Source of the DNA: a bacterium
Lineage (GTDB): Bacteria; Bacillota_I; Bacilli_A; RFN20; CAG-826
Reading direction: 5' to 3'
Assembly (NCBI GenBank): GCA_963638955.1
Contig: CAVHTL010000001.1
Coordinates: forward strand, 8,357 to 48,130
DNA: 39,774 nucleotides
Position numbers and translations under genes: made by a program. The notes under the pieces were generated by a model that was given only the letters and a program-made list of their open reading frames with translations, had not been told where the DNA came from and did no database searches. Positions 15,853-39,774 of this stretch are shown here, in pieces; within the stretch, counting starts at the first letter, position 1; each line of letters starts with the position of its first letter.

Positions 15853-16407
15853 ATGCCAGTACAGTTAGGCGAAAAGCAGTGGTATATCGTCACCACTTAT
15901 TCGATGCATGAATCAAAAACAGCAGAGAATCTAAAAAAGCGTATTGTGTCCATGAACATGCAAGATCAGATTTTGCGCGTTTTGGTCGCTGAGCAAGAGG
16001 TTCCGGTTTTAAAAGACGGTCTTCCTACTGGGAAGATGAAAACCATCAACCTTTATCCAGGCTATATCTTCGTTGAGATGATCATGACTGATCAATCTTG
16101 GTATATCGTCCGTAATACCCCAGGAGTTACCGGTATCGCCGGCTCTAGCGGAGGCGGACAAAAGCCAACCCCTGTAACGAGAGAGGAAATCGAGCCTGTT
16201 CTTAAGCGCATGGGCATGGTCGACAGCGCGATGTATGACCGCTACAACGTCGGTGATAGAGTCAAAGTCATCCATGGTCCGCTTGAAGGAACCGAGGGCA
16301 CGATCATCTCCATCGACAAGACCACCGGAGCTTGCCGCGTCGATACGGTCTTCTTCGGAAGAAGCACTCCAGTCGATGTTGACTTCTCTGAGATTGAAAA
16401 AATCTAA
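15853..16407 (+). CDS. nusG: Transcription termination/antitermination factor NusG
   Basis: N-terminal domain KQWYIVTTYSMHESK.....YPGYIFVEM. KOW domain GDRVKVIHGPLEGTEGTIISID. Confidence 0.95.
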   Translation: MPVQLGEKQWYIVTTYSMHESKTAENLKKRIVSMNMQDQILRVLVAEQEVPVLKDGLPTGKMKTINLYPGYIFVEMIMTDQSWYIVRNTPGVTGIAGSSGGGQKPTPVTREEIEPVLKRMGMVDSAMYDRYNVGDRVKVIHGPLEGTEGTIISIDKTTGACRVDTVFFGRSTPVDVDFSEIEKI

Positions 16408-16822: not shown

Positions 16823-17590
16823 TCATGATTCACTGCTCTTCTTACGATGGCGCTCCCAAAAGCGAATAGCCTCATCAAACCATCCTTCGCATGAGGTCCC
16901 GCTTCCAAGTCCTACGCCGTGTCCAACGTCTGGATATGTACGCAATTGACAATCGATGCTTTTTTCCTGCAGCACCGCAATTAGCATCTCGCTGTTGCTT
17001 GGGCTCACAACTCGATCTGAGGAGCCGTACCAAACGAAAGTCGGCGGCGCATCATCGCGGATATGGGATTGAACTGAGGCGCGATCAATTTCTTTCTCGC
17101 TTGGCGTTTTTCCAAGCAACGCCTCCCGACTCCCCATATGCGTTTCATCCCCCATGGTGATCACCGGATAGCTGAGAATCACGGAAGCCGGAGCCGGGGA
17201 AAGACAAAAATCCGTTAAACCAACGCTTGCCGCCAAATGTCCGCCCGCAGAAGCTCCCCAAAGGGAATAACCTGTGGGATCAATTCCGTAAGCTTCTGCG
17301 TTTTCAAGAATTTCCCGCAACGCTTTGAACGCATCATCCATAGGGGCGGGATATCTTGCCTTTTTCCCACACCGGTAGTACAGCACGAACGCTGCGTAAC
17401 CGCGTTTGTTAAGTTCGCGCGCAATAGGCGCACCCTCAACATAACTACAAACCATATGGTATCCGCCACCGGGGATCACAAGCGCGAACGGATGCTTCTT
17501 TCCGTCACGAATCAGATACTTTTTCAGTCCGTATTTGTTTGGTCTCCAAAAATCGAAAGCAGCTTGGCAAATATCACGCAGTTTCATCAT
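16823..17590 (-). CDS. Alpha/beta hydrolase (esterase/lipase-type, HGGG-like class)
   Basis: 255 aa. Oxyanion-hole region VIPGGGYHM, nucleophile elbow GASAGGH, acid region SSDRVV, and His in PDVGHGVG. Confidence 0.8.
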   Translation of the reverse strand: MMKLRDICQAAFDFWRPNKYGLKKYLIRDGKKHPFALVIPGGGYHMVCSYVEGAPIARELNKRGYAAFVLYYRCGKKARYPAPMDDAFKALREILENAEAYGIDPTGYSLWGASAGGHLAASVGLTDFCLSPAPASVILSYPVITMGDETHMGSREALLGKTPSEKEIDRASVQSHIRDDAPPTFVWYGSSDRVVSPSNSEMLIAVLQEKSIDCQLRTYPDVGHGVGLGSGTSCEGWFDEAIRFWERHRKKSSES

Positions 17591-17605
17591 TGTTTTTCTA
17601 ATCTG

Positions 17606-17633
17606 ATTCTAATCTTCGTTCGGATTTTGTCAG
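17606..17633 (-). promoter_or_regulatory. Possible own promoter of the hydrolase gene
   Basis: Read on the - strand: CTGACA (17633-17628), 16-nt spacer, TAGAAT (17611-17606). It lies ~15 nt upstream of the ATG at 17590. Confidence 0.3.
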
Positions 17634-17688
17634 TATTCTTTTTAAATTCATAAAAAGCAACATCAGATTGAGGCTCCTAAAGATATAT

Positions 17689-18726
17689 TTACTCTTCTTC
17701 CTCTATAACAAATTCTCGGAAGCGGGGGAGAGCGAAAGAGATATAGCCGTAATTTTGGCTTACGAGGACGCCTTTCTGCAAGAGTCTAGAGCGGTAGACG
17801 GAATAAAGTTTGCTGGAGAATCCAGTTTTTTTGAGGATATTGGCCGTGCTTTCCTCACCTCTTTCTTTCAGGCAAGCGATGATTTTTCTTTCTTCTGGCG
17901 TGACGCCAGACCAAATTTTGTTATAGGCGTTTATTCTTAAAGACATGTCGTATTGGTTTATAAGTTCATCATCGATCTTGCGGTGTTTGAAATATAGATA
18001 CCCGAGCAGCTGATAGCCAAAGCCATACCCGTTCGTTAGTGCAGCGAGTTTTTTGCCCGTCGCTTCATCTACTCCAAGGATCGACATGTACGATGTCTTT
18101 ATGGCCATTAGATCAAGTGGTTGAAGAAGTATCTTCGGCGCCCTATAGAGAAATGTCATAGATTTATCGTTCTGAAGCGATGAAACGTTTTCATATAATC
18201 CGCTCATCAGAAGATATATAGGATAATCTTTCCGCACAAAGCTTTGAAAATCGTGAACGAATTCTTTCACTTTCTTGTTTGTGGTTACCGCATCTAGCGT
18301 GATTAAGACCTTTTTGCCTTTGCTTTTCAAATAGTCGAGCATCTTGGACACAACTACTGAGACGCTTGTTACTGGCTCCTTGCCCTCGAGATGAAACGAA
18401 AGACCGTGGAAAGAAAAATCAAAGCTTCCGTGCAAAAACAGATGCTTTGCCTTTCCGTTTTCGTAGAGCCCCGAGGCAACCTCTTCTAGGATTTCGCGAT
18501 GCGGATTAACGTCAACGACAATCCAGTCCTTCTCTTTTTCGAAGTGTTTGTAAAGTTCGCTGAGCAAGACTGTTTTTCCAGCGCCTCTTGCTCCGAGAAT
18601 CAAGTAAGCTTGAGTCGATGGATTCATCGAAGAATAGTCGCTTGCGATGCTCGCTATTAAATCATCCCGTCTTATGATTTCGTTTGGCTCTTTACCAAAC
18701 ATTAGCGTAAATGGATTAGTAGTCAT
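17689..18726 (-). CDS. Orphan AAA+/P-loop ATPase with C-terminal winged-helix domain (archaeal-ATPase / ORC-Cdc6-like architecture)
   Basis: SD GGAGG. Walker A is LILGARGAGKT; Walker B is KKVLITLDAV. The C-terminal wHTH-like segment is ERKIIACLKERGEESTANILKKTGFSSKLYSVYRSRLLQKGVL. AT-rich relative to the core genes. Confidence 0.8.
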   Translation of the reverse strand: MTTNPFTLMFGKEPNEIIRRDDLIASIASDYSSMNPSTQAYLILGARGAGKTVLLSELYKHFEKEKDWIVVDVNPHREILEEVASGLYENGKAKHLFLHGSFDFSFHGLSFHLEGKEPVTSVSVVVSKMLDYLKSKGKKVLITLDAVTTNKKVKEFVHDFQSFVRKDYPIYLLMSGLYENVSSLQNDKSMTFLYRAPKILLQPLDLMAIKTSYMSILGVDEATGKKLAALTNGYGFGYQLLGYLYFKHRKIDDELINQYDMSLRINAYNKIWSGVTPEERKIIACLKERGEESTANILKKTGFSSKLYSVYRSRLLQKGVLVSQNYGYISFALPRFREFVIEEEE

Positions 18727-18750
18727 CGTTTTCCTCCAATTTTACAATTC

Positions 18751-18790
18751 TTGTTAGGTCTTGTTAGGTCTTGTTAGGTCTTGTTAGGAC
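18751..18790. repeat. Four head-to-tail copies of a 10-bp unit (TTGTTAGGTC x3, TTGTTAGGAC x1)
   Basis: Read directly at 18751-18790. It begins 25 nt upstream of the ATPase start codon (18726, - strand). Confidence 0.95.
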
Positions 18791-18846
18791 TTTCAAATGG
18801 ATTCTTATTATTTGTTTTGCTTGGAAAAACCAGTATTTGCCGTAAT

Positions 18847-18928
18847 TATGAAAAATAGTTCATATTTATCTTGAATTATGAACAAACATTCATATAATGA
18901 GTGTCGTAAATATGAAAGGAGATTCATA
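18847..18928 (+). promoter_or_regulatory. Three copies of the 18-bp palindrome TATGAA-N6-TTCATA (ArsR/SmtB-type operators)
   Basis: Sites at 18847-18864 (N6 AAATAG), 18877-18894 (CAAACA) and 18911-18928 (AGGAGA, which is the SD). The TGAA...TTCA core resembles the 12-2-12 ArsR/SmtB operator class. Confidence 0.6.
18871..18898 (+). promoter_or_regulatory. Sigma-A-type promoter of the arsR-family/ATPase operon
   Basis: TTGAAT (18871-18876), 16-nt spacer, TATAAT (18893-18898). Operator 2 fills the spacer and overlaps the -10. Confidence 0.55.
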
Positions 18929-18930
18929 TT

Positions 18931-19227
18931 ATGCCAAACATGCCAGATGATAAGACTTTGGACAAAATGGAATCGCTTCTCAATATAGCGAGCGATTTCA
19001 CGCGTCTTAAGATTCTATATGCGATTAGCGATAAAGAGAAAAACGTCAGCGAGATTGTACTTGAGACCGGCGCCTCCCAATCGCTTGTTTCTCATCAGCT
19101 CAACGTTTTGAAGAAAGCCAATTTGGTCTCCACTTACAAAGTCGGGACAAAGGTTTTTTACAAATTGAGTGACGAGCACGTCACTAAATTACTAGAAGTC
19201 GTGCACGAGCACGTGTTGGAGGCGTAA
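18931..19227 (+). CDS. ArsR/SmtB-family metalloregulator, Cys-free, with alpha-5-type (SmtB/CzrA-like) ligand set
   Basis: HTH is NVSEIVLETGASQSLVSHQLNVLKKANLV. The C-terminal D-E-H-x10-H-x2-E matches the SmtB D104/H106/H117/E120 spacing. No Cys anywhere in the protein. Confidence 0.85.
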   Translation: MPNMPDDKTLDKMESLLNIASDFTRLKILYAISDKEKNVSEIVLETGASQSLVSHQLNVLKKANLVSTYKVGTKVFYKLSDEHVTKLLEVVHEHVLEA

Positions 19228-19229
19228 AT

Positions 19230-21173
19230 ATGGGTTGCGCGCATTGCGAAGCCGCTCACGAAGACGGCGAATCGATATTCGGCAAGGAATTCTGGATCAA
19301 GATAGCGAGGCTCTCCTCCTCTCTTGTCTTGATGCTTTTGGGCTACTTCCTTTTCAACGAGGATAATTACGGCCTTTGGGTCAATTTCGCGATCATGGCG
19401 ACGGCTTTCCTCATCGTTGGCTACGACGTCTTTTTGGAAGCGTTCGAAGCCATTTTCAAAGAGAAAGAATTCTTCAATGAAGAGCTTTTGATGTGTATTG
19501 CCACTCTTGGCGCTTTCTCCATTCGTTTTTTCGGAAAAGAGCATAACGAATTCTTTGAGGCCGTGATGGTCATGCTCCTCTTCCAGGTCGGGGAGTTATT
19601 CGAAGACATCGCAACCGCCAGAAGCCATAAAGCCATTACGGAAGCCGTCGGTCTAAGAGCGAAAATCGCCCATAAGAAAGAAGGCGAAACGATAATCGAC
19701 GTCGATCCTAAAGATGTGTGCATCGGCGACATGCTTCTCATCAAAGTAGGGGAGATAGTGCCTTCCGATGGAATAATCGTCGATGGCGAAGGATCGCTTG
19801 ATATGTCTTCTTTGACTGGCGAATCCTTGCCAGTGAGAAAAGTCAGTGGGGAAGAAGTGCCAAGCGGAACGATTCTCAAATCGGGATCGCTTCTAGTGAG
19901 AGTTAGCAAGAGCTACGAAGATAGCACGGTCAGCAAAATCATCAAGCTCATGGAAGAAGGGGCTGAAAGCAAAGGCAAAATCACCCGCTTTGTCGATAAA
20001 TTCGCCAAAGTATATACCCCGGTTGTCGTAGCCTTGGCTTTGGTAGTCGCCATCATTCCGCCTCTATTTTTGGGGATAGGAGACCCTCTAGTCTGGGAAC
20101 AATGGATTTATACGGCGCTGAGCTTACTAGTCATCTCTTGCCCCTGCGCGATCGTGATTTCCGTACCCCTTGCCTATTTTGCCGGAATCGGCTTGGCCTC
20201 CAAAAACGGAATAATCATCAAAGGCGCTTCCGTCTTCGATTCGCTTGAGCGCCTTTCTCATGTCGTAAGCGATAAAACCGGAACTCTCACTTATGGCGTT
20301 TTCAAAGTTCAGAAAATAGTTCCGAGTAGTTGCTCTTCCAAAGAGCTAATGCATTATCTTCTCGTTGCTGAATCCCGCAGCTCCCATCCTCTTGCAAGCG
20401 CCATAAAAGGCGATGAGGATATCTCGGAAATCGCCGCAAAAATGACTTCTTATGATGAAATTGCCGGAAAAGGGGTCAAAGCGGAATATGAAGGAAACCT
20501 CTATTTGGCTGGCAATCACACTCTGCTAGAAGAGGCAGGAATCAACTTTGTTGCGGCAAGAGAAGAAGGCTCGATAATCTACGTTGCGAGAAACGGCGAA
20601 TACAAAGGATATTGCGTTTTATCCGATTCTCCCAGAAAAGAGACGCCAGAGCTCGTTGAAGGGCTTAAGAAGCGCTCCATCGGCTTGACGATGCTCACGG
20701 GCGATAAGAAAGAAAACGCCGATAGTTTCGCTTCCTCCTTAGGCATCAGCGACTATCATTACGAACTTTTGCCAAAAGACAAAACGCTCTATCTAGAGCA
20801 GGAAATCGCGAAAAAAGACGGCGCGGTCGCTTTTATCGGCGACGGCATCAACGACGCTCCGTCGATCACGATGGCGGATGTAGGAATCGCGATGGGCGGA
20901 GCAGGGAGCGATTTGGCCATCGAAACGGCAGATGTTGTCATAATGAACGATGACCCTAGCAAACTTTTGCTGGGATTAGACATCTCGAAAAAAGTAAGGG
21001 GCCACGTTCTTTTCAATATCATCTTCTCAATTTTAGTGAAAATCACGATTATGGCTCTTTCCATTGCTTTGCCTTTATTCCCGCTTCTGATCGCTGTACT
21101 TGGTGATACCGGACTCACGATGGTCCTGGTTCTTATTACCATGTGTCTCCTTTACGAAAAGCCGAAGAAATGA
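19230..21173 (+). CDS. cadA: Heavy-metal P1B-type ATPase (CadA/ZntA-like, CPC motif), lacking an HMA domain
   Basis: 647 aa. Motifs TGES, SCPCAIVIS, DKTGTLT, GDGINDAP and TM8 GDTGLT. The N-terminus is only MGCAHCEAAHED. Confidence 0.88.
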   Translation: MGCAHCEAAHEDGESIFGKEFWIKIARLSSSLVLMLLGYFLFNEDNYGLWVNFAIMATAFLIVGYDVFLEAFEAIFKEKEFFNEELLMCIATLGAFSIRFFGKEHNEFFEAVMVMLLFQVGELFEDIATARSHKAITEAVGLRAKIAHKKEGETIIDVDPKDVCIGDMLLIKVGEIVPSDGIIVDGEGSLDMSSLTGESLPVRKVSGEEVPSGTILKSGSLLVRVSKSYEDSTVSKIIKLMEEGAESKGKITRFVDKFAKVYTPVVVALALVVAIIPPLFLGIGDPLVWEQWIYTALSLLVISCPCAIVISVPLAYFAGIGLASKNGIIIKGASVFDSLERLSHVVSDKTGTLTYGVFKVQKIVPSSCSSKELMHYLLVAESRSSHPLASAIKGDEDISEIAAKMTSYDEIAGKGVKAEYEGNLYLAGNHTLLEEAGINFVAAREEGSIIYVARNGEYKGYCVLSDSPRKETPELVEGLKKRSIGLTMLTGDKKENADSFASSLGISDYHYELLPKDKTLYLEQEIAKKDGAVAFIGDGINDAPSITMADVGIAMGGAGSDLAIETADVVIMNDDPSKLLLGLDISKKVRGHVLFNIIFSILVKITIMALSIALPLFPLLIAVLGDTGLTMVLVLITMCLLYEKPKK

Positions 21174-21557: not shown

Positions 21558-21968
21558 ATGGCTAAGAAAATCGTCAAAGTCCTCAAGATGGAACTCCCTG
21601 GCGGAGATGCCCATCCAGGACCAAAGCTTGCTTCTGCAGGCGTCCAAATGGCCAAATTCTGCACCGAATTCAACGCGAAGACCTCGGACAGAAAAGGCGA
21701 AGTCGTGCCGGTCATCATCACGGCTTACGAAGACAAATCATATGCCTTCGAAATCAAGACCAGCCCAGTGAGCGGCTTATTGCTCAAAGCGGCAGGGATC
21801 GAAAAAGGCTCGGGCAACCCGAAGAAAATCGTCGGGCACATCTCTGATGCCGATCTCACGAAGATTGCCGAATACAAAATGCCTGACCTCAACGCCAACG
21901 ACGTTGATGCCGCGAAGAAAATCGTCGCCGGCAGCGCCCGTCAGATGGGCATTGCCATCGACAAATAA
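21558..21968 (+). CDS. rplK: 50S ribosomal protein L11
   Basis: SD AAGGAGG. Protein KMELPGGDAHPGPKLASAGVQMAKFCTEFNAKT......VPVIITAYEDKSYAFEIKTSP. Confidence 0.95.
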   Translation: MAKKIVKVLKMELPGGDAHPGPKLASAGVQMAKFCTEFNAKTSDRKGEVVPVIITAYEDKSYAFEIKTSPVSGLLLKAAGIEKGSGNPKKIVGHISDADLTKIAEYKMPDLNANDVDAAKKIVAGSARQMGIAIDK

Positions 21969-28165: not shown

Positions 28166-32197
<4,032 letters not shown>

Positions 32198-32204
32198 AAA
32201 AAGG

Positions 32205-32258
32205 AATAGAGGCCGAAGCCTAACGCGAGTTAGGCGGAAACGGCCTCTATTTTTCTTT
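32205..32258 (+). terminator. Rho-independent terminator after rpoC
   Basis: AATAGAGGCCG (32205-32215) pairs with CGGCCTCTATT (32241-32251), with an inner GCCTAAC/GTTAGGC hairpin, followed by TTTTTCTTT. Confidence 0.7.
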
Positions 32259-32372
32259 CGACCAAATGGGCTATTTATAGCGGCGAGCAACTCGAAAAAA
32301 GCATCTTATCTTCATTGACTTTCGCCTTCTTTTCTATTTGTGTTTTGCTTAGTTATCTTTATCATATTTCCT

Positions 32373-32813
32373 ATGAAGAAATGCAACAACTGCGGGGCCA
32401 AAGTGACTGACGATTCGCTTTATTGCCCCAAGTGCGGAGAGAAAATCGAAGAGACGATATCCGTAAATGACTATACGTCTAATGACCCATATCATTCCGT
32501 GAACGAGGAAGAAGCTGTCGAGGCGGAAAGAGTGGGGGTGGAAGAAAATGATGGAAGCATAAAGAAAGACGAAGAAAGCAAAAGCGATGCTGCTTTCTCC
32601 GCTTCAAGCGGCAACGTTGACCACGTTTTCGCCATCTTATCTCTCGTTTTCGGGGCTTTAGGAGGACTGCTCTCCATCGTTTTCGGAGTGCTTACCTTAA
32701 CTTCGCCCACCGCGAGCAAAGACGACAAGAAAAAAGCCTATATCGGCTTAGGCTTATGCGCTTGCTGGTTCGTTATTATCCTTATCCTTATTTTTGTCTC
32801 TTTCCTCCAATAG
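32373..32813 (+). CDS. Zinc-ribbon domain membrane protein (hypothetical)
   Basis: Start moved to ATG 32373. MKKCNNCGAKV....LYCPKCGEKI is a CxxC...CxxC ribbon. An acidic linker follows, then two C-terminal TM helices. No SD; a TATCAT at 32360-32365 lies 7 nt upstream. Confidence 0.7.
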   Translation: MKKCNNCGAKVTDDSLYCPKCGEKIEETISVNDYTSNDPYHSVNEEEAVEAERVGVEENDGSIKKDEESKSDAAFSASSGNVDHVFAILSLVFGALGGLLSIVFGVLTLTSPTASKDDKKKAYIGLGLCACWFVIILILIFVSFLQ

Positions 32814-32988
32814 GGAACTCGTTTCCTAACTAGAGGTCTTTGTTCAAATCCCCCTATCAGGCTCTATCCTTAATATATAAGAGGAAGAATCTTTTTTGCT
32901 TCCTGAACACAAAAGAGGAATAATTCGCTCTCTTGAAGTCCACATAACCCAGCGTATCAAAAGGCGAAAACTTTCGGTAAAATCTTTG

Positions 32989-33017
32989 TTGACAGGCATT
33001 TTTCATGCGCGTAATAT
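32989..33017 (+). promoter_or_regulatory. Sigma-A-type promoter of the str operon (rpsL-rpsG-fusA-tuf)
   Basis: TTGACA (32989-32994), 17-nt spacer, TAATAT (33012-33017). It lies ~55 nt upstream of the rpsL ATG. Confidence 0.55.
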
Positions 33018-33072
33018 CTCGTTTGCGCGCGTCGAGATTCGTTTTGACGCGAAACGAATAGGAGAAAAGAAA

Positions 33073-33492
33073 ATGCCTACAATCAATCAATTGGTGAGAG
33101 CAGGCCGCCATACCGCTGCGAAAAAATCGAAAACCCCAGCGCTTGGCAGACGTTACAACAGCCTTACCAAGAAATCGACCAACCAGGCCAGTGCCCAAAA
33201 GCGCGGCGTTTGCACCCGTGTCGGCACGATGACCCCAAAGAAGCCGAACTCAGCGCTTCGTAAGTATGCCCGTGTCCGTTTGTCCAATGGATACGAAGTC
33301 ACCGCCTATATCGGCGGAGAAGGCCACAACCTTCAAGAGCACAGCACCGTCATGATCAGAGGCGGACGTGTCAAGGATCTTCCAGGCGTCCGTTATCACA
33401 TCATCCGCGGCTGCTTAGACTGCGCCGGCATCGAAGCCCGCCGTCAAGGCCGTTCCTTATACGGGACGAAGAAGCCAACCAAGAGCGAGTAA
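33073..33492 (+). CDS. rpsL: 30S ribosomal protein S12
   Basis: Start moved to ATG 33073, after [18 protein letters not shown]...[60 protein letters not shown]. Confidence 0.95.
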
Positions 33493-33992: not shown

Positions 33993-36092
33993 ATGGCTGA
34001 CGAGAATATCATCAAAGAATCCGAAACCTACGATCTTCCCCACACCCGCAACATCGGTATCATGGCTCACATCGACGCGGGCAAAACCACGACCAGTGAG
34101 CGCATCCTCTATTACACCGGCAGAACCCATAAGATCGGAGAGGTCCACGAAGGAACCGCCGTCATGGACTGGATGGAAGAGGAACAAGAACGCGGCATCA
34201 CCATCACTTCCTCAGCGACCACTTGCTTCTGGAAGGGTCACCGCATCAACATCATCGACACCCCAGGGCACGTCGACTTCACCGTTGAAGTTGAACGTTC
34301 TCTCCGCGTCCTCGATGGCGCCGTCACTGTCTTAGACAGCAAAAACGGCGTTGAGCCGCAGACAGAAACCGTCTGGCGTCAAGCCGACAAATACGGCGTT
34401 CCGAGAATCGTCTTCTGCAACAAGATGGACGCCATCGGCGCTGACTTCGAGATGTGCCTTGACACCCTCAAAGAGAGACTCGGCGTCGACTATGCCGCCG
34501 CCCAATACCCAATCGGCCGCGAATCCGGTTTCACCGGCGAGATCGATTTGGTGAGAATGGTGGCTTGGTATTACACTGGCAACAAAGACGATGCCCCAAC
34601 CGAGAAACCGATCCCTGACGAGCTCAAGGAAAAAGCCAATTTCTACCATCAACAGCTTCTCGAGAAACTTGCCGCCCATGACGATGACCTCATGATGAAG
34701 GTCTTAGACGGGCAAGAGCCGAGCGTTGAGGAAATCAAAGCCGTCATGAGAAAAGCGACGATCACCGGCAAATTCTTCCCGGTCTTCTGCGGAACCGCCT
34801 TCAAAAACAAAGGCGTCCAGCTGCTTCTCGATGCCGTCATCGATTATCTCCCATCGCCTCTCGATATCCCAGGCGAAAAGGGCGAGCTCAAAGGAACTGA
34901 CTACGTGTGCAAAGTCACTGACGATGCTCCGTTTGTTGGCTTAGCCTTCAAAATCGCGACCGATCCATTCGTTGGCCGTCTAGCTTATGTGCGCGTCTAT
35001 CAAGGCGAGCTCAAGAGCGGAAGCTATGTCTACAATTCATCCCGTGGACAGCAAGAGCGTATCGCGCGTTTAGTCCTTATGCATTCCAACCGCCGTCAAG
35101 AAGTCAGCGTCTTGCACGCTGGTGAAATCGGCGCGGTCATCGGGCTTAAGAACACCACGACCGGCGACACTCTCACCGATCCTTCCGAGCCAGTCGTGCT
35201 CGAGAAGATGGAATTCCCAGAGCCAGTTTTGGAAGAAGCGGTCGAACCAAAGACCAAAGCCGACATCGAAAAGATGGCGGTGGCGCTCCAAAAACTCGCC
35301 GAAGAGGATCCAACCTTCCGCGTCCACACCAATAACGAAACCGGCCAAACCATCATTGGCGGCGTCGGTGAGCTTCAGCTTGACGTTCTCGTTGAGCGCA
35401 TGAGACGCGAATTCAATGTCGACGTCAATGTCGGCGCTCCGCAAGTCAACTACCGCGAAACCATCACGAAGACTGGTGAAGCCGAAGGTAGATACATCAA
35501 GCAGTCCGGAGGTCACGGTCAATATGGTGATGTCTGGCTCCGCTTCGAACCAAACCCTGGCAAAGGATTCGAGTTCGTCGATGCGATCGTCGGCGGTGCG
35601 GTTCCGAAGGAATTCATCAAACCGACTCAGCAAGGCCTTGTCGATGCCCTCAATAGAGGTCTCATCGCCGGCTTCCCTGCGATTGACATCAAAGCGACTT
35701 TGTTCGACGGCAGCTACCACGAAGTCGATAGCTCCGAAGCGGCTTACAAGATCGCCGCATCCATGGCGCTTAAAGAAGCCGCCAACAAGTGCGGACCGGT
35801 CATCCTTGAGCCGATCATGAAAGTCGACGTCACCGTCCCAGAACAATACTATGGCGATGTCATCGGCGATATCAGCCGTAGACGCGGCACCCTTACGAAC
35901 GAAACCGTTCGCGGAAACGCCAAAGTCGTCAGCTGCGAAGTCCCGCTTGCCGAGATGTTTGGCTACGTCACAGACCTCCGCTCCTTAACGCAGGGCAGAG
36001 GCAACTTCACGATGACTTTCGACCATTATGGACAATGCCCACGCTTCGTCCAGGACGAAATCGTCAAAAAAAGCGCGATGAGCAATAGATAA
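33993..36092 (+). CDS. fusA: Elongation factor G
   Basis: Start moved to ATG 33993, after GAAGGAGGA. Motifs [34 protein letters not shown]. Confidence 0.96.
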
Positions 36093-36143
36093 ATTCATTG
36101 AACGCAGTAAAGGAAAAACACTCTTCCCTTACTACGTAAATGA

Positions 36144-36172
36144 TTGTCAAACTCGAATCGTTGCCCTATTAT
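36144..36172 (+). promoter_or_regulatory. Internal promoter for tuf in the fusA-tuf spacer
   Basis: TTGTCA (36144-36149), 17-nt spacer, TATTAT (36167-36172). It lies 46 nt upstream of the tuf ATG. Confidence 0.45.
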
Positions 36173-36217
36173 TATCTAGCGTCAAAGTAGAAAACCATTT
36201 TTGGAGGAAAAAACACA

Positions 36218-37435
36218 ATGGCAAAAGAAAAATTCAACCGTGATCGTGTCCACCTCAACGTTGGCACCATCGGTCACGTCGACCACGGCAAGACCACTCT
36301 TACCGCTGCGATTACCCACGTCTTATCCATGGTTGGCAAAGCCACCGGCGGAAAAGACGGCAACGCCGTCGATATGGCTTATTCCCAAATCGACAGCAGC
36401 CCAGAAGAGAAAGCCCGTGGTATCACGATCAACACCGCTCACGAAGAGTATGAGACCGCGAAGCGCCACTATGCGCACGTCGACTGCCCAGGGCACGCTG
36501 ACTATGTCAAGAACATGATCACTGGCGCCGCCCAAATGGACGCCGCGATCCTTGTCGTCTCTGCCGCTGACGGCGTTATGCCTCAGACCCGTGAGCACGT
36601 CCTTCTTGCCCGTCAAGTCGGCGTTCCTTACATCATCGTCTATCTCAACAAATGCGACATGGTCGACGATCCAGAACTCATCGACATCGTCGAAATGGAC
36701 GTCCGTGACCTTCTCAGCAAATACGGATTCCCTGGCGATGACACCCCAATCGTCCGTGGCAGCGCCAAAAAAGCAGGCGAGGCCAAAGACCTCAACGATG
36801 AGAGCACCAAGTCTGTCCTTGAGCTTCTAAACGCTCTTGACACCTACGTCCCAGATCCAGTCCGTGACGACGACAAACCATTCCTTCTTCCTATCGAAGA
36901 CGTCCTCACGATCTCTGGCCGTGGCACTGTTGTCACTGGTAGAGTCGAGCGTGGTGTCGCTCACCTCAACGACGAAGCCGAAATCGTCGGTATCCGTCCA
37001 ACTCAGAAGACCGTCATCACTGGTCTAGAGATGTTCCGCAAGACCCTCGACTTCGCCGAGGGCGGAGATAACGTCGGCGTCTTGCTCCGTGGCATCACCC
37101 ACGACCAAGTCGAGCGTGGACAAGTCCTTGCCAAACCTGGCTCGATCGTCCCACACGACAAATTCACCGCTGCCGTCTACATTCTTACGAAAGACGAAGG
37201 TGGTCGTCATACCGCTTTCTTGAACGGCTATCGCCCACAATTCTTCTTCCGTACCACCGATATCACTGGCTCCATCACTCTTCCTGCCGGAACCGATATG
37301 GTCATGCCTGGCGATAACGTTACCTTCACCGTTGAGCTCATCCACGCGATCGCTCTTGAAAAGGGAACCAAGTTCTCCATCCGTGAAGGCGGAAAGACCG
37401 TCGGCGCTGGCACTGTCGCTGAGATCCTTCACTAA
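36218..37435 (+). CDS. tuf: Elongation factor Tu
   Basis: 405 aa. Motifs [46 protein letters not shown]. Confidence 0.97.
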
Positions 37436-37450
37436 TTAGACGTGAATCCT

Positions 37451-37480
37451 AAAGCACCTCGAAAGGGGTGCTTTTCTCTT
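37451..37480 (+). terminator. Rho-independent terminator after tuf
   Basis: AAAGCACCTC (37451-37460) pairs with GGGGTGCTTT (37465-37474) around a GAAA loop, followed by TTTTCTCTTT. Confidence 0.7.
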
Positions 37481-37612
37481 TGCCTAATGAATGAGAGTTG
37501 CTGACTAGCTGCCGTAATATGGCTTAACGCAGTGATTTCAGCCCTTTTTCAAACCGTAGCTCGATAATACCTCCGCTTCATTCATCCTTGCCTACGCTCC
37601 TCGGTCCAACAA

Positions 37613-37852
37613 GTGGGGTTCGCTACACATGCAACGGCTGAGACGAAAGGGATCGCAGATGATGAAAACCCCATGGAGCCGATCGACGAGCCCCATCGTT
37701 ATCTTGCAGGATTCATCGGCGCGCATTGCGGTTTCTCAAGCGAGGAACTTCAAGAATGGCTCAATCCTTTTTGTTTCTACTGGGACAACTGCGGAGGCGC
37801 GTTTGAAAAGGCTCAGTCGTTCATCGGATTGGCGACTGAAAAGCGCGATTGA
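37613..37852 (+). CDS. Hypothetical small protein or gene remnant
   Basis: 79-aa ORF with a GTG start, no SD and no recognisable motif. A second 84-aa ORF overlaps it in another frame. Coding status uncertain. Confidence 0.25.
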   Translation: MGFATHATAETKGIADDENPMEPIDEPHRYLAGFIGAHCGFSSEELQEWLNPFCFYWDNCGGAFEKAQSFIGLATEKRD

Positions 37853-37978
37853 GTGCGTTATCGTGACTGAAAGAATCCTGTAAATATCGATAAAGGATGG
37901 CTTTTATCCCTCACGTACACTAGAGAGTTTAAAATTTAAATTCGACAATAAAGAATGGCGATAGCAGCTTCAGCTCAG

Positions 37979-38007
37979 TTAACAAACTATCGTTGCAATG
38001 ATATAAT
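37979..38007 (+). promoter_or_regulatory. Sigma-A-type promoter of the DUF3990-like/HTH gene pair
   Basis: TTAACA (37979-37984), 17-nt spacer, TGaTATAAT (extended -10; hexamer 38002-38007). It lies 37 nt upstream of ATG 38044. SD AAAGGAGG is at 38027-38034. Confidence 0.5.
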
Positions 38008-38043
38008 TGTAATGCAAATTAAAAACAAAGGAGGTTTCTACAT

Positions 38044-38742
38044 ATGTCTATCGTTAAATTGCTTCACGGCACCGATCATATCGTAAAAACGCCTAATTAT
38101 TCCCTTGGAAAACCGCATAATGATTACGGACGGGGGTTTTACTGCACCGAAGTTCTTGAAATGGCAAGAGAGTGGGCGTGTAAGGAAAATAAGGATGGTT
38201 TCGTAAACGAATATAATTTCTCCTGTGACGGATTAAACGTGCTAAATCTCCTTGATGGAAAACATAGTGTATTGAATTGGATTGCGTTATTGCTTAAAAA
38301 TCGCATATTTACGTTGCAAGATGAAATTGCAGTTGACGCGAGAAATTACATAATCAAACATTGTTTGGTGGATTTGACCGGTTACGATGTCGTCATAGGT
38401 TATCGTGCAGACGATTCTTATTTTTCATATGCTCAATCGTTTGTCAGCAACGCTTTGCCGCTTGGAAGTCTTAATCAAGCATTAAAACTCGGTAAACTCG
38501 GTGCACAAACCGTGCTTATCTCAGAACGAGCCTTTAAACAAATAGAATTTATTAATGCCGATCCTGTAGATAAAGAAGTATATTATCCTAAATTTTTGTC
38601 AAGAGATACAATAGCAAGAACTACTTATCAAAAAGAAATCAAAAAAAGTAGCTCTTATCGCGACGACATTTTTGTTATGGATATTTTAAGAGAGGAAATG
38701 AAAAATGACGATCCGCGCATACAACGAATTATACTTGAATGA
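38044..38742 (+). CDS. DUF3990-like protein (function unknown; putative toxin/effector of a two-gene module)
   Basis: 232 aa. LLHGT (res 6-10), GRGFYCTE (29-36), AREWA and IGYRADDSYF are motifs I associate with DUF3990. Strong SD. AT-rich. Confidence 0.7.
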   Translation: MSIVKLLHGTDHIVKTPNYSLGKPHNDYGRGFYCTEVLEMAREWACKENKDGFVNEYNFSCDGLNVLNLLDGKHSVLNWIALLLKNRIFTLQDEIAVDARNYIIKHCLVDLTGYDVVIGYRADDSYFSYAQSFVSNALPLGSLNQALKLGKLGAQTVLISERAFKQIEFINADPVDKEVYYPKFLSRDTIARTTYQKEIKKSSSYRDDIFVMDILREEMKNDDPRIQRIILE

Positions 38743-39358
38743 CGCTATAAAAAACTTGGCTAACGCTTTCAATTATGCGATAAATGTGTGCAAACTCGAA
38801 CCCGATTGGTTTGCTAAACTTTTTGTGTTGTCCGATGTATCTACACAATTCGAACGCGGAAACCCGGCTTTCATTTCTGGTAAATCGGGCGAAGAACTTG
38901 TAAGAGATATTCTAAGCGAGGTTGACCCGGGAGAGGAATTACCCGCTCCTTTGTTTTCGGAAGAACGAACTCCTGAATATTGGGCAGGGTGGGCTTTGGC
39001 ACAATATCAATGGGCTTCGGCTAAACGCTTTAAGGATATTTTTGAGCGTATTCCGTTGAGCACAATTATTGCTATGTATCCTACCTTTCACGAAATGGAT
39101 ATAAGCCGTTTCAACGAATCGATGGACAGGCGTTACAACGAGTTCGTTACAGAAACGAAACTTCATAAAATTCGCAAAAGCAGACAAATTTCACAGACAG
39201 AACTCGCAAAACTTTCGGGAGTTAATCTGCGCTCTATTCAACTTTACGAACAACGCGTAAACGATATAGACAAAGCGCAAGCTCAGACACTGTATAAATT
39301 ATCCCGTGTGCTTGGTTGTAACGTTGAAGATTTGCTTGAAAAGCCCGCAACGTTTTAA
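38705..39358 (+). CDS. Partner protein with uncharacterised N-terminal ~150 aa and C-terminal XRE-family HTH (putative antitoxin/repressor)
   Basis: ATG 38705 lies 38 nt inside the upstream ORF; an in-frame TTG at 38735 is an alternative start. The C-terminus KIRKSRQISQTELAKLSGVNLRSIQLYEQRVNDIDKAQAQTLYKLSRVLGCNVEDLL is a canonical HTH_XRE. Confidence 0.75.
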   Translation: MTIRAYNELYLNDAIKNLANAFNYAINVCKLEPDWFAKLFVLSDVSTQFERGNPAFISGKSGEELVRDILSEVDPGEELPAPLFSEERTPEYWAGWALAQYQWASAKRFKDIFERIPLSTIIAMYPTFHEMDISRFNESMDRRYNEFVTETKLHKIRKSRQISQTELAKLSGVNLRSIQLYEQRVNDIDKAQAQTLYKLSRVLGCNVEDLLEKPATF

Positions 39359-39383
39359 TTAAATACTTTTCGGTTTTATTTTC

Positions 39384-39630
39384 GGTGCCATATACACCGT
39401 CAAGCTGTTCTCGATCATCAGGACCGCGATCATCAACGGCCTGGGTCCGTACCGCTACCTCAAATACATTTTGGAGAACATAAAAAGCAAACCCGTCGAC
39501 GACTTGCTGCCTTACTCCAGAGCCATGGAAAAATTGCTTTGAATCCTGCCTTTTCCTCCATTTGGGGAATGGCCCTGCCGTCTGTATAGATGGCTTTTTT
39601 CCTACGGGGGTGTTAAATAACGACGTTTAC
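39384..39630 (+). mobile_element. 3'-terminal remnant of an IS66-family element (transposase C-terminal ~52 codons plus right inverted repeat)
   Basis: The frame ending at TGA 39540-39542 reads GAIYTVKLFSIIRTAIINGLGPYRYLKYILENIKSKPVDDLLPYS, like IS66 TnpC C-termini (..NGLNPY.YL...L..LLPW). The element end at 39630 reads 5'-GTAAACGTCG... on the complement, matching the GTAA start of IS66 IRs. There is no upstream transposase body. Confidence 0.6.
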
Positions 39631-39674
39631 ATTTCTAAATTGCTGATTTAAGGGAAAGGTAAGGCACATATCCA

Positions 39675-39713
39675 AATAAAAAAGGCTTGATAACTTATAG
39701 TAAGTATCAAACC
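39675..39713 (-). terminator. Rho-independent terminator for a - strand gene lying right of the window
   Basis: On the - strand, GGTTTGATACTTA/TAAGTTATCAAGCC forms a 14-bp arm with 2 mismatches, followed by TTTTTTATTT. Confidence 0.45.
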
Positions 39714-39774
39714 ATTGCTTTCTAAATGTGTGTAAAAAGTTCAAATGATACAAATGATTAAAAATACCATAGGT

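What the first reader, a model, noticed from the sequence alone, without database searches (positions are those of the whole stretch)
38044..39358. Overlapping DUF3990-like + XRE-HTH gene pair: candidate uncharacterised toxin-antitoxin / defence-type module
Seen in sequence: two same-strand ORFs (232 and 217 aa) overlap by 38 nt. ATG 38705 lies inside ORF1, whose stop is at 38740-38742. They share one good promoter and a strong SD. The segment is far more AT-rich than the adjacent tuf gene; a hand count of one 60-nt line each gives 22/60 G+C at 38041 versus 35/60 at 36241. ORF1 carries LLHGT, GRGFYCTE, AREWA and GYRADDSYF, which I recognise as the signature of DUF3990, a family with no assigned function. 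ORF2 ends in a canonical XRE HTH, preceded by ~150 aa that I cannot assign. Established knowledge: overlapping two-gene cassettes with an XRE-HTH member are the standard layout of type II toxin-antitoxin and abortive-infection modules. To my recollection, DUF3990 genes are normally accompanied by a small helical partner (DUF3791). Inference: ORF1 is an effector or toxin. ORF2 is its neutraliser and autorepressor, here fused to a DNA-binding domain. The cassette arrived by horizontal transfer next to an IS remnant.
Basis: partly seen in the sequence, partly recalled or inferred. Interest (0 to 1): 0.75.

Follow-up and report, generated by a model that had tools for sequence, protein, structure and literature searches.

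The report
ADP-ribosyltransferase-like toxin–antitoxin cassette
Next to the tuf gene sits a 1.4-kb imported two-gene cassette, a DUF3990 protein with an ADP-ribosyltransferase-like fold plus an overlapping DNA-binding partner; it looks like a self-repressing toxin–antitoxin or candidate phage-defence module, is found in hundreds of gut-bacterial species, and has never been tested.

Summary
The two ORFs (38044-38742 and 38705-39358) overlap by 38 nt. They have one strong promoter and good Shine-Dalgarno sites. Cassette G+C is 38.6% against 55% for tuf, and an IS66 fragment follows.

ORF1 is a clear DUF3990 protein (Pfam E 2e-40). Its AlphaFold model matches only ADP-ribosyltransferase (ART) folds such as PARPs, the ParT toxin and phage PolyVal ARTs. 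The His and Tyr motifs and an acidic residue are conserved across the family.

ORF2 has a ~145-aa all-helical N-domain and a C-terminal XRE helix-turn-helix. No Pfam family covers the N-domain, and it is not detectably DUF3791.

In 78 of 80 related genome loci, from several phyla, the same partner follows ORF1; the overlap is 35 or 38 nt in 72 of them. All 77 distinct upstream regions carry 16-bp palindromes across the promoter, and their sequence covaries with the HTH domain.

Genomic contexts vary widely: housekeeping genes, prophage, restriction-like genes. Only the 1.4-kb unit is shared between loci.

PADLOC lists the family as an untested candidate, PDC-M42. I read it as an autoregulated ART-toxin/antitoxin-type module. 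Toxicity, target and any defence role remain untested.

The parts
37931..39387 (+). Widest extent of DNA shared with related loci, i.e. the mobile cassette of promoter plus two genes. Most relatives share only 37979/37984 to 39345/39363.
   Evidence: blastn of window 36000-39774 against all fetched loci. Homology starts 60-110 nt before the ORF1 ATG and ends at, or up to 30 nt after, the ORF2 stop. G+C is 38.6% against 55% for tuf.
37979..38007 (+). Sigma-70-type promoter TTAACA-17-TATAAT with a TG extension.
   Evidence: 11 of 12 matches, and the only + strand site in 37400-39774. TTGACA and TATAAT-like hexamers lie at the same position in most related loci.
37988..38003 (.). Predicted operator: the 16-bp palindrome TATCGTTGCAATGATA, lying in the promoter spacer and overlapping the -10 hexamer.
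   Evidence: Equivalent palindromes occur in all 77 distinct upstream regions, and 63 of 77 have two or more, against 13% of shuffles. The half-site class covaries with HTH identity.
38030..38034 (+). Shine-Dalgarno GGAGG for ORF1, 9 nt before the ATG.
   Evidence: Sequence.
38044..38742 (+). ORF1, 232 aa. The DUF3990 / ADP-ribosyltransferase-fold core covers aa 1-~175. A subfamily-specific helical C-terminal extension covers aa ~176-232. This is the predicted toxin or effector.
   Evidence: Pfam PF13151, E 2e-40. PADLOC PDC-M42A, E 1e-40. AF2 model pLDDT 80.6, pTM 0.78. Foldseek hits are ART folds only. H8, Y33, W44, D/E115 and D124 are conserved.
38690..38696 (+). Internal Shine-Dalgarno GAGAGGA for ORF2, embedded in the 3' end of ORF1. 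It implies translational coupling.
   Evidence: Sequence. A GAGGAG or AGGGAGG motif lies at the same place in related loci, and the overlap is 35 or 38 nt in 72 of 78.
38705..39139 (+). ORF2 N-terminal domain, aa 1-~145, all-helical. No Pfam family covers it; it matches PADLOC PDC-M42B. This is the predicted toxin-binding or sensing part.
   Evidence: PADLOC, E 3.7e-7, aa 3-133. No Pfam hit at E<=10. 1254 cluster representatives at E<=1e-3. AF2 pLDDT 89. No PDB fold match beyond the HTH.
39152..39343 (+). ORF2 C-terminal XRE/Cro-type helix-turn-helix, aa ~150-213. This is the predicted operator-binding part.
   Evidence: HTH_3 and HTH_26, E 9e-8. Foldseek hits to 434 Cro, P22 c2, SinR, HipB and CapH with TMt 0.6-0.9.
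39387..39542 (+). Truncated 3' end (last ~51 codons plus stop) of an IS66-family transposase gene. It directly abuts the cassette.
   Evidence: PF13817 DDE_Tnp_IS66_C, E 1.6e-8.
37451..37474 (+). Intrinsic terminator of tuf. It marks the end of the native str-operon transcript upstream of the cassette.
   Evidence: a 10-bp stem followed by a T run.

Best explanation
This is a horizontally acquired, self-contained 1.4-kb operon of the toxin-antitoxin type.

ORF1 is an enzyme with an ADP-ribosyltransferase (ART) fold of the His-Tyr-acidic (PARP / diphtheria-toxin-like) kind. It most likely uses NAD+ to modify, or to consume, an essential cell component, and it is therefore harmful when free.

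ORF2 is made from the same transcript by translational coupling; its start and Shine-Dalgarno site lie inside the end of ORF1. It has two jobs.

- Its C-terminal XRE helix-turn-helix binds the 16-bp palindrome that overlaps the -10 of the single promoter and represses the operon.
- Its ~145-aa helical N-domain holds ORF1 inactive, probably by direct binding, possibly to ORF1's subfamily-specific C-terminal extension.

Loss or inactivation of ORF2 would free the enzyme. That could happen through loss of the element or, if the module is a defence system, through a phage cue.

Shown here: the ART-like fold and the conserved motifs; the strict pairing and conserved overlap; the promoter and the covarying operators; the mobility and foreign composition.

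Inferred: toxicity, neutralisation by binding, the substrate, and the biological role (addiction versus abortive infection).
For: Fold and family.
- DUF3990 hit at E 2e-40. DUF3990 is listed in the Pfam ART clan (PMC7955679).
- The AF2 model (pLDDT 80.6, pTM 0.78) matches only ART domains. In the PDB these are PARP4, PARP1, tankyrase, the ParT toxin bound to ParS, and diphtheria toxin (prob up to 1.0, best E 2e-3). In BFVD they are PolyVal ARTs and PARP domains, and the best hit has E 2.8e-8 and TM 0.54-0.61.
- H8-G9, G29-x-G31-F-Y33-x-T35 and W44 (11 residues after Y33) are invariant from the 232-aa subfamily to canonical 160-aa DUF3990. D124 is also invariant. An acidic residue (D/E115) sits just before strand 116-120.

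Toxin precedent. DUF3990 is the C-terminal tip of T6SS Rhs proteins that have a downstream immunity gene (PMC4524185, PMC10763514).

Pairing.
- 78 of 80 genome loci have the ORF2-like gene immediately downstream (ORF1 46-94% identical; Clostridia, Bacilli, Negativicutes, Coriobacteriia, Spirochaetes, one Bacteroidaceae). The same holds for 15 of 15 full-length viral-contig loci.
- The overlap is 35 or 38 nt in 72 of 78 loci, with an internal Shine-Dalgarno site.
- Divergence of ORF1 and ORF2 is correlated (rho 0.80).

Autoregulation.
- The palindrome at 37988-38003 lies in the promoter.
- Palindromes are present in all 77 distinct upstream regions.
- At equal ORF1 divergence, TATC-N8-GATA loci have HTH domains 50-65% identical to the window's, while AATAC-N4-GTATT loci have 36-46%. 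The ranges do not overlap; p = 4e-6.
- In 26 of 150 family representatives the N-domain is fused to a MerR-type domain instead of an XRE HTH, which marks the DNA-binding part as an exchangeable module.

Decay pattern.
- L033 has a nonsense-mutated ORF1 with an intact ORF2.
- L111 and L112 have a frameshifted ORF1.
- No locus has an intact ORF1 with a broken ORF2.

Mobility. Contexts differ completely between loci: tuf, yihA, malic enzyme with HipA, a methylase with KAP NTPase, a PLD/helicase restriction-like gene, and a site between phage portal and terminase genes.

PADLOC. The PDC-M42A and PDC-M42B models match.
Against: - No experiment on any DUF3990 protein was found in the searchable literature.
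- Structural similarity to solved ARTs is weak (TM about 0.3, E no better than 2e-3), and no sequence-level link to any PDB chain exists.
- The residue at the position that looks like PARP's 'NEY' glutamate (E56) is not conserved. The catalytic acid therefore has to be D/E115 or D124, and I could not confirm that by superposition.
- The aspartate in place of glutamate and the extra conserved residues (W79, R87, Q155) could mean a different chemistry.
- No complex model could be run, so the ORF1-ORF2 contact is pure inference.
- The toxin-first gene order, with no separate antitoxin promoter predicted, leaves open how antitoxin excess would be achieved.
- The decay pattern rests on very few cases.
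- The shuffle control for palindromes is weak in AT-rich DNA: half of the shuffles have at least one.
Confidence: 0.6

Rival explanations
1. The parts are the same, but the role is abortive-infection phage defence rather than plain addiction. The ORF2 N-domain would be a sensor that a phage product or infection signal removes or inactivates, releasing the ART enzyme to stop the infected cell or to modify phage nucleic acid. This overlaps with the best explanation and differs only in trigger and purpose.
For: - The PADLOC candidate models PDC-M42A and PDC-M42B match. Those candidates were selected because they are embedded in BREX, DISARM or type I RM loci (bioRxiv 10.1101/2024.01.29.577857).
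- Some relatives sit beside defence-like genes: MTaX1 with a DNA methylase and a KAP NTPase, a PLD/helicase restriction-like gene with RmuC, and Schlafen-like and AAA_21 genes.
- Some copies lie inside prophage packaging modules.
- Known ART defence toxins exist, such as DarTG (my own knowledge).
Against: - The PDC systems are explicitly untested.
- Many copies, including this one, lie among housekeeping genes with no defence neighbours.
- I did not measure defence-island enrichment.
- Only 19 hits were found in 2.9 million viral contigs, and ORF1 has no PHROG family.
Confidence: 0.3
2. ORF1 is not a toxin but an accessory NAD+-dependent modifying enzyme, for example one that inactivates a small molecule or repairs or modifies RNA. 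ORF2 would be its ligand-responsive transcription regulator, with the N-domain as the ligand sensor.
For: - ART-clan members include non-toxic enzymes, such as Arr-type antibiotic ADP-ribosyltransferases and Tpt1 (my own knowledge).
- An XRE- or MerR-fused sensor domain next to an enzyme gene is a common regulator layout, and the N-domain carries conserved Gly-rich and aromatic motifs that could bind a ligand.
- Toxicity is untested.
Against: - The invariant translational coupling and 35/38-nt overlap point to a fixed protein ratio rather than simple regulation.
- The N-domain was seen only with DUF3990. Even the one 'standalone' N-domain protein checked has a decayed DUF3990 upstream.
- DUF3990 is used as an Rhs toxin tip.
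- The toxin gene is the one found inactivated.
- No transporter or pathway genes travel with the pair.
Confidence: 0.12
3. ORF2 neutralises ORF1 enzymatically, as DarG does for DarT, by removing the modification through its N-domain rather than by binding the toxin.
For: The N-domain has near-invariant polar and Gly-rich positions (G52, G59, G62, E64, Q102) that could form an active site or a nucleotide pocket. DarTG is a precedent for ART toxins (my own knowledge).
Against: - The N-domain is a small all-helical domain with no similarity to macrodomains, ARH or NADAR hydrolases in Pfam or PDB searches.
- The strict coupling and the co-divergence with ORF1 (rho 0.80) fit a protein-protein interface better.
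Confidence: 0.08

Closest known systems
PADLOC phage-defence candidate PDC-M42, and the related DUF3990 candidates PDC-M10 and PDC-M13 (Payne et al., bioRxiv 10.1101/2024.01.29.577857)
   Same: ORF1 matches PDC-M42A almost end to end (E 1e-40, aa 1-204 to profile positions 1-205 of 215). The ORF2 N-domain matches PDC-M42B (E 3.7e-7). Both are DUF3990-plus-helical-partner cassettes of unknown function.
   Different: - PDC-M42 is defined as a three-family cassette, FAM_00403>>FAM_03189>>FAM_00360. Here there are two genes, the B-like domain is fused to an XRE HTH, and no conserved third gene follows.
- PDC-M42 is untested, so it supplies a label and not a mechanism.
Canonical DUF3990 with DUF3791 cassettes (for example B. 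uniformis pBUN1, C. tetani plasmids, Segatella copri)
   Same: They share the enzyme family, with conserved H-G, G-x-G-F-Y-x-T, W, R, D/E and D positions. They also have tightly overlapping small helical partner genes.
   Different: - The canonical enzyme is ~160 aa and lacks the 94-113 insert and the 176-232 extension.
- Its partners are DUF3791 upstream plus a ~75-aa ORF downstream; in Bacteroides the two are fused into one 147-aa protein. Neither has an HTH.
- The ORF2 N-domain shows no detectable similarity to them: hhalign probability 0.3%, and 0 of 150 members hit PF12668.
ParT-ParS / RES-Xre toxin-antitoxin systems (ParT ADP-ribosylates Prs; PDB 6d0h, 6d0i)
   Same: An ART-clan toxin is paired with an XRE-HTH antitoxin in a two-gene operon. 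ParT is among the best structural matches of the ORF1 model.
   Different: - ORF1 has no RES-domain hit; only DUF3990 matches.
- ORF1 has a His-Tyr motif, whereas RES is named for Arg-Glu-Ser (my own knowledge).
- The NCBIfam RES/Xre antitoxin model scores far below its cut-off: 20 bits against 90.
- The gene order differs, to my recollection, and so does the antitoxin's second domain.
MqsR-MqsA (type II TA)
   Same: - The layout is the same: the toxin gene comes first.
- The antitoxin has an N-terminal domain (toxin-binding in MqsA, predicted here) and a C-terminal XRE HTH.
- The antitoxin binds (predicted here) a palindrome in its own promoter (my own knowledge for MqsA).
- The MqsA family model is the top NCBIfam hit of ORF2's HTH (E 8.7e-6).
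   Different: - That score is far below the cut-off: 25.6 bits against 61.8.
- The match does not extend into the N-domain (aa 137-198 only), and I did not look for MqsA's zinc-binding CxxC motifs there.
- The toxin is an ART-fold enzyme, not an RNase.
DarT-DarG
   Same: A His-Tyr-Glu-clade ART toxin in a two-gene, toxin-first cassette, with roles in both TA behaviour and phage defence (my own knowledge).
   Different: ORF1 gave no DarT Pfam hit and ORF2 has no macrodomain. Here the partner carries a DNA-binding domain.

Membership tests
Pfam DUF3990 (PF13151) | Score above the family's gathering threshold over the full-length profile. | tested here: met
   138.3 bits against a 32.2 cut-off, E 2.1e-40, profile positions 2-152 of 152.
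ADP-ribosyltransferase superfamily (Pfam ART clan, His-Tyr-Glu clade) | The ART split beta-sheet fold. | tested here: met
   - The clan listing of DUF3990 comes from PMC7955679.
- All top Foldseek matches of the AF2 model are ART domains: PARP4, PARP1, tankyrase, ParT and diphtheria toxin in the PDB; PolyVal ARTs and PARP domains in BFVD.
- The scores are modest: PDB E 2e-3 and TM ~0.3; BFVD best E 2.8e-8 and TM 0.54-0.61.
ADP-ribosyltransferase superfamily (Pfam ART clan, His-Tyr-Glu clade) | Motif I, His on strand 1 (H-G-S/T), and motif II, Tyr on strand 2 (G-x-G-x-Y), followed by an aromatic residue about 11 positions later. | tested here: met
   H8-G9-T/S, G29-x-G31-F32-Y33-x-T35 and W44 are invariant in 32 diverse sequences, including canonical DUF3990. 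Strands 3-10 and 32-35 are present in the model. The comparison with PARP1 H862, Y896 and Y907 rests on my own knowledge.
ADP-ribosyltransferase superfamily (Pfam ART clan, His-Tyr-Glu clade) | Motif III, a catalytic Glu (or Asp/Gln) at the start of the fifth core strand. | tested here: inconclusive
   - E56, in a PARP-like 'NEY', is not conserved (35% Lys).
- D/E115 directly precedes strand 116-120 and is acidic in all 32 sequences; D124 is invariant.
- Structural equivalence to the catalytic Glu could not be checked because no coordinates or superposition were available.
ADP-ribosyltransferase superfamily (Pfam ART clan, His-Tyr-Glu clade) | NAD+ binding and ADP-ribose transfer or NAD+ hydrolysis. 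| not testable with these tools
   This needs biochemistry.
Type II toxin-antitoxin module | Two small co-directional genes in one operon, with the pairing conserved across genomes. | tested here: met
   78 of 80 genome loci and 15 of 15 full-length viral loci keep the pair. The overlap is 35 or 38 nt in 72 of 78. There is a single promoter.
Type II toxin-antitoxin module | The antitoxin has a DNA-binding domain and represses its own promoter through a palindromic operator. | tested here: met
   This is in-silico evidence only. There is an XRE HTH. The palindrome lies inside the promoter. It is conserved in all 77 upstream regions and covaries with HTH identity. Binding itself was not tested.
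Type II toxin-antitoxin module | The toxin arrests growth, and the antitoxin protein neutralises it by direct binding. | not testable with these tools
   Only indirect support exists: use of the domain as an Rhs toxin tip, inactivated ORF1 with intact ORF2 in L033, and co-divergence at rho 0.80.
PADLOC PDC-M42 (untested defence candidate) | Proteins matching the A and B models. | tested here: met
   PDC-M42A at E 1.1e-40 and PDC-M42B at E 3.7e-7.
PADLOC PDC-M42 (untested defence candidate) | A third family in the cassette (FAM_00403>>FAM_03189>>FAM_00360). | tested here: not met
   The three-family definition comes from the paper's supplement. In the window an IS66 fragment follows ORF2. In relatives the downstream gene differs from locus to locus and is often on the other strand. 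No third PDC-M42 model appeared among ORF2's hits.
DUF3990-DUF3791 pair | The partner protein belongs to DUF3791 (PF12668). | tested here: not met
   - The ORF2 N-domain alone gave no Pfam hit at E<=10.
- 0 of 150 family representatives hit PF12668 at E<=0.1.
- hhalign of the N-domain profile against a DUF3791 profile gave probability 0.3%.
- blastp found nothing.
RES-Xre (ParST / MbcTA) | A RES-domain toxin and an Xre antitoxin of the ParS family. | tested here: not met
   ORF1 gave no RES hit. NF049845 scored 20.3 bits against a cut-off of 90.
DarTG | A DarT-domain toxin and a macrodomain antitoxin. | tested here: not met
   DUF3990 was ORF1's only Pfam hit and HTH families were ORF2's only hits, so there is no DarT domain or macrodomain.

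The most novel reading that the evidence does not exclude
The 232-aa DUF3990 enzyme and its HTH-fused partner would be a new, very widespread family of ADP-ribosylating abortive-infection systems in gut anaerobes. The so-far undescribed ~145-aa helical N-domain of ORF2 would be a new kind of antitoxin/sensor module, and the enzyme would have a His-Tyr-Asp active site and a target different from those of DarT, ParT and CmdT.
Probability: 0.25. Interest if true: 0.7.

Novelty: new variant of a known kind. Interest (0 to 1): 0.5.

Why it matters
DUF3990 is a large ART-clan family with no experimental function.

- More than 7,800 clusters at 90% identity resemble ORF1.
- At least 596 of about 185,000 species-representative genomes carry a relative.
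- The partner's N-domain family has about 1,250 clusters at 50% identity and no Pfam model.

This work gives a concrete model that can be tested directly:
- candidate catalytic residues H8, Y33, D115 and D124;
- a defined operator, TATCGTTGCAATGATA;
- a defined 1.4-kb functional unit;
- natural specificity classes of operator and HTH.

If toxicity and ADP-ribosylation were shown, a further ART toxin family would join DarT, ParT/RES and CmdT. It would be one that is common in human gut Clostridia. PADLOC's PDC-M42-type candidates would also move from guilt-by-association to mechanism.

For this genome, it shows a foreign cassette and an IS66 scar lodged directly after tuf, at the end of the str operon.

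Tried and rejected
1. ORF2 N-domain as DUF3791. I tried a single-sequence Pfam scan at E<=10, a scan of 150 family members, profile-profile hhalign against 88 DUF3791 proteins and blastp. All were negative. Resemblances I saw by eye fitted two different registers equally well, so I discarded them.
2. ORF1's C-terminal extension as a fused DUF3791 or small partner, or as related to the ORF2 N-domain. hhalign probability was 0.5-0.6%. Rejected.
3. E56 in 'NEY' as the catalytic glutamate. Rejected because the position is variable.
4. Sequence-level link to any solved structure. Profiles A1 and A4 against the PDB gave nothing for ORF1.
5. A PDB fold for the ORF2 N-domain.
6. Standalone N-domain proteins as evidence that the domain works without DUF3990. 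The one case I examined (L111/L112) is a decayed module with a frameshifted DUF3990 upstream.
7. A phage origin. There are only 19 viral-contig loci, 5 unannotated 'Bacteriophage sp.' records and no PHROG family, so the cassette is not mainly phage-borne.
8. A tRNA or structured RNA at the insertion site. None was found.
9. Identifying the source organism. The exact proteins are on one unnamed 50,951-nt NCBI contig, and the look-up of that contig failed.
10. Literature on DUF3990, DUF3791, PF13151 and PDC-M42. I found only domain mentions and no functional study.
Full report
1. The observation

The two ORFs are as described. ORF1 is 38044-38742 (232 aa) and ORF2 is 38705-39358 (217 aa). Both are on the + strand and overlap by 38 nt. 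The four quoted motifs are present in ORF1.

The only + strand promoter-like site between 37400 and 39774 is TTAACA-17-TATAAT at 37979-38007. It matches 11 of 12 positions and has a TG extension. GGAGG lies 9 nt before the ORF1 ATG, and GAGAGGA lies inside ORF1, 8 nt before the ORF2 ATG.

The cassette is 38.6% G+C, against 55.2% for tuf and 54.2% for fusA.

The window is otherwise a housekeeping stretch: cysS, a SpoU methylase, nusG, rplK, a 1234-aa and a 1343-aa ORF that I take by size and position (not scanned) to be rpoB and rpoC, rpsL, a 156-aa ORF (presumed rpsG), fusA and tuf. tuf has its own terminator at 37451-37474. Directly after the ORF2 stop lie the last ~51 codons of an IS66-family transposase (39387-39542; PF13817, E 1.6e-8).

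2. ORF1

ORF1 is a full-length DUF3990 protein (PF13151, E 2.1e-40). Pfam places DUF3990 in the ADP-ribosyltransferase (ART) clan (PMC7955679).

No solved structure is related at the sequence level, even when a broad family profile is used.

An AlphaFold2 model built on 46 homologues has pLDDT 80.6 and pTM 0.78. The core (aa 1-190) is confident, and the C-terminal ~40 residues are poorly defined.

Foldseek against the PDB returns essentially only ART domains: PARP4, PARP1/2, tankyrases, the ParT toxin in complex with ParS, and diphtheria toxin. Probabilities reach 1.0, but the scores are modest (best E 2e-3, TM ~0.3). Against predicted viral structures it again returns ARTs, namely PolyVal ARTs and PARP catalytic domains. 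The best hit is an unnamed 202-aa viral protein at E 2.8e-8 and TM 0.54-0.61.

I aligned the 232-aa subfamily with canonical ~160-aa DUF3990 proteins from Bacteroides, Clostridium tetani and Segatella plasmids. The invariant positions are H8, G9, P17, D27, G29, G31, Y33, T35, A41, W44, Y57, W79, R87, G119, A122, D124, L152 and Q155.
- H8-G-T/S on strand 1, and G-x-G-F-Y33 on strand 2 followed 11 residues later by an aromatic residue (W44), reproduce the first two motifs of PARP and diphtheria-toxin-type ARTs. The comparison with PARP1 H862, Y896 and Y907 comes from my own knowledge.
- The glutamate in the PARP-like 'NEY' (E56) is not conserved.
- An acidic residue (D/E115) immediately precedes strand 116-120 in every sequence, and D124 is invariant. 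One of these is probably the third catalytic residue, but I could not verify this by superposition.

Compared with the canonical proteins, this subfamily has an insert (aa ~94-113) and a conserved, Arg/Asp-rich helical C-terminal extension (aa ~176-232).

3. ORF2

The C-terminus (aa ~150-213) is a standard Cro/XRE helix-turn-helix. Pfam gives HTH_3 and HTH_26 at E 9e-8, and Foldseek matches 434 Cro, P22 c2, SinR, HipB and CapH. No NCBIfam antitoxin model reaches its cut-off; the best, MqsA-family, scores 25.6 bits against 61.8.

The first ~145 residues are all-helical and confidently modelled (pLDDT ~90). They match no Pfam family, even at E<=10, and no PDB fold.

An exhaustive HMMER search with the N-domain found 1254 cluster representatives at E<=1e-3. 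Of the best 150, 93 carry an XRE HTH, 26 carry a MerR-type domain instead, some have an extra C-terminal region, and none hits DUF3791.

Profile-profile comparison with 88 DUF3791 proteins gave probability 0.3%.

The N-domain does match PADLOC's PDC-M42B model (E 3.7e-7), just as ORF1 matches PDC-M42A (E 1e-40).

4. Conservation of the pair

ORF1 has more than 7,800 relatives at 90%-identity clustering, and ORF2 has about 1,550. Nearly all of the listed ones have the same lengths as the window's proteins.

A scan of one genome per species found at least 596 loci, and I examined the best 80. They carry ORF1 at 46-94% identity and come from Clostridia, Bacilli, Negativicutes, Coriobacteriia, Spirochaetes and one Bacteroidaceae MAG.
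- In 78 of 80 loci an ORF2-like gene (N-domain plus HTH) follows immediately. In three of these (L001, L015, L042) it runs off the contig end. The two exceptions are a contig whose ORF1 is broken with no ORF2 detected (L038) and L033, where ORF2 is intact but ORF1 has a premature stop.
- The overlap is 35 nt in 39 loci, 38 nt in 33, and 20-23 nt in 6. A GAGGAG or AGGGAGG Shine-Dalgarno site is always embedded in the end of ORF1.
- Divergence of ORF1 and ORF2 from the window's proteins is correlated, with Spearman 0.80 for the N-domain and 0.75 for the HTH.
- All 15 full-length hits on viral contigs also carry ORF2.
- One apparently standalone N-domain protein (L111/L112) turned out to lie downstream of a frameshifted DUF3990.
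- I saw no intact ORF1 with a disrupted ORF2.

5. The unit that moves

Nucleotide similarity between the window and related loci is confined to about 37931/37984-39345/39387. That is the promoter region plus the two genes.

The surroundings differ completely between loci:
- yihA and thrB in a Collinsella replicon;
- a malic enzyme gene, an esterase and a hipBA pair;
- an MTaX1 gene, a DNA methylase and a KAP NTPase;
- a PLD/helicase restriction-like gene and RmuC;
- a phage-type sigma factor and a giant surface protein;
- a site between phage portal and terminase genes, on the opposite strand.

Together with the G+C drop and the abutting IS66 scar, this supports horizontal acquisition. No recombinase travels with the cassette, and how it moves is unexplained.

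6. Regulation

In the window a 16-bp palindrome, TATCGTTGCAATGATA (37988-38003), sits in the promoter spacer and overlaps the -10 hexamer.

The 100 nt upstream of ORF1 in all 77 distinct related loci contain at least one 16-nt palindrome with 6-nt arms and at most one mismatch. Two or more are present in 63 of 77, against 13% of shuffled sequences. One usually lies between the -35 and -10 hexamers and one between the -10 and the Shine-Dalgarno site.

Two half-site classes exist, TATC-N8-GATA and AATAC-N4-GTATT. Among loci whose ORF1 is equally distant from the window's (<52% identity), those with the window's TATC class have HTH domains 50-65% identical to the window's. AATAC-class loci have 36-46%. 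The ranges do not overlap, and Mann-Whitney p = 4e-6, although relatedness inflates this figure.

This is the pattern expected if the ORF2 HTH binds these sites and represses its own operon.

7. Mechanism proposed

The best-supported reading is a toxin-first, translationally coupled, autorepressed toxin-antitoxin-type operon.
- ORF1 is an ART-fold enzyme.
- ORF2 represses the promoter through its HTH and neutralises ORF1 through its N-domain.
- The co-occurrence of ORF1's C-terminal extension with this particular partner suggests that the extension is part of the interface. This is inference.

Support for ORF1 being harmful is indirect:
- DUF3990 forms the variable C-terminal toxin tip of T6SS Rhs proteins that have a downstream immunity gene (PMC4524185, PMC10763514);
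- ART-clan toxins with Xre or other antitoxins are known, and ParT is among the structural matches;
- the gene found inactivated is ORF1.

I put 0.6 on this overall reading. For the components I put about 0.85 on the ART fold, about 0.8 on autorepression through the palindrome, and about 0.5 on neutralisation by direct binding.

Whether the role is addiction/selfish maintenance or abortive-infection defence is open. The PADLOC PDC label rests only on guilt-by-embedding in BREX, DISARM or type I RM loci and is explicitly untested.

8. Comparison with known systems

It works like ART toxin-antitoxin pairs (ParST/RES-Xre, DarTG), and in layout it resembles MqsRA. It fails the membership tests for all three: there is no RES or DarT domain, no macrodomain, and no ParS or MqsA score above cut-off.

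It is a member of Pfam DUF3990.

It is a two-gene, HTH-fused variant of PADLOC candidate PDC-M42, which is defined as three families.

It differs from the canonical DUF3990 cassette. There DUF3791 lies upstream and a ~75-aa ORF lies downstream of a ~160-aa enzyme. In Bacteroides these two partners are fused into a 147-aa protein.

9. Verdict

It is one member of a large, conserved, mobile and experimentally untouched family that has already been flagged computationally, so it is not a categorically new thing.

Its value is as a well-defined target. It offers a probable new ART toxin family with candidate catalytic residues, an undescribed antitoxin domain, and a predicted operator with natural specificity classes.

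Interest is 0.5. Novelty: new variant of a known kind.

Noticed in passing
window 16823-21173: Three non-ribosomal genes sit between nusG (15853-16407) and rplK (21558-21968), which are usually adjacent. They are an alpha/beta-hydrolase esterase (- strand), an AAA ATPase (- strand) and a P-type ATPase (+ strand). This may be a second insertion into the conserved operon region.
   Followed up: partly
window 32000-33250: An AT-richer stretch (G+C 0.44-0.46 against ~0.55 on either side) lies between the 1343-aa ORF I presume to be rpoC and rpsL. It holds a 157-aa ORF (32340-32813) with an N-terminal zinc-ribbon domain.
   Followed up: partly
window 37475-37930: This segment between the tuf terminator and the cassette is not shared with other cassette loci. 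Its 79-aa ORF (37613-37852) has no Pfam hit. Whether it is native, part of the IS66 element or another scar is unresolved.
   Followed up: partly
L120-L123 (for example L122:6001-7312): A 73%-identical copy of the cassette is inserted, on the opposite strand, between phage portal and terminase large-subunit genes. In L120 and L121 the terminase product is only 234 aa and hits the nuclease domain alone.
   Followed up: no
L111:3351-4441 and L112: This is a decayed copy. The DUF3990 gene is split into 70-aa and 88-aa ORFs, and the partner has lost its HTH (146 aa). It lies among Schlafen-like (SLFN_AlbA_2) and AAA_21 genes.
   Followed up: yes
L033:5953-7315: ORF1 has a premature stop at 6132 while the overlapping ORF2 (216 aa) is intact. 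The near-identical locus L031 has both genes intact.
   Followed up: partly
ORF2 N-domain family (P0241-P0390): The same N-domain is fused to MerR-type domains in 26 of 150 representatives. In ~360-aa versions it is fused to an XRE HTH plus an extra ~150-aa C-terminal region with no Pfam hit.
   Followed up: partly
L081:3561-4483, L082:3771-4712, L083:3783-4701: Canonical DUF3990 genes have two small helical partners: DUF3791 upstream and a ~75-aa ORF downstream. In B. uniformis pBUN1 both are fused into one 147-aa upstream protein (blastp E 5e-10 to 2e-15). That is about the same size as the ORF2 N-domain, but without detectable similarity to it.
   Followed up: yes
L013:8446-8829: A second, weak ORF2 N-domain-like match (22% identity, aa 3-133) lies ~1.1 kb downstream of the cassette in this Coprobacillus MAG. 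It may be a second, divergent module.
   Followed up: no
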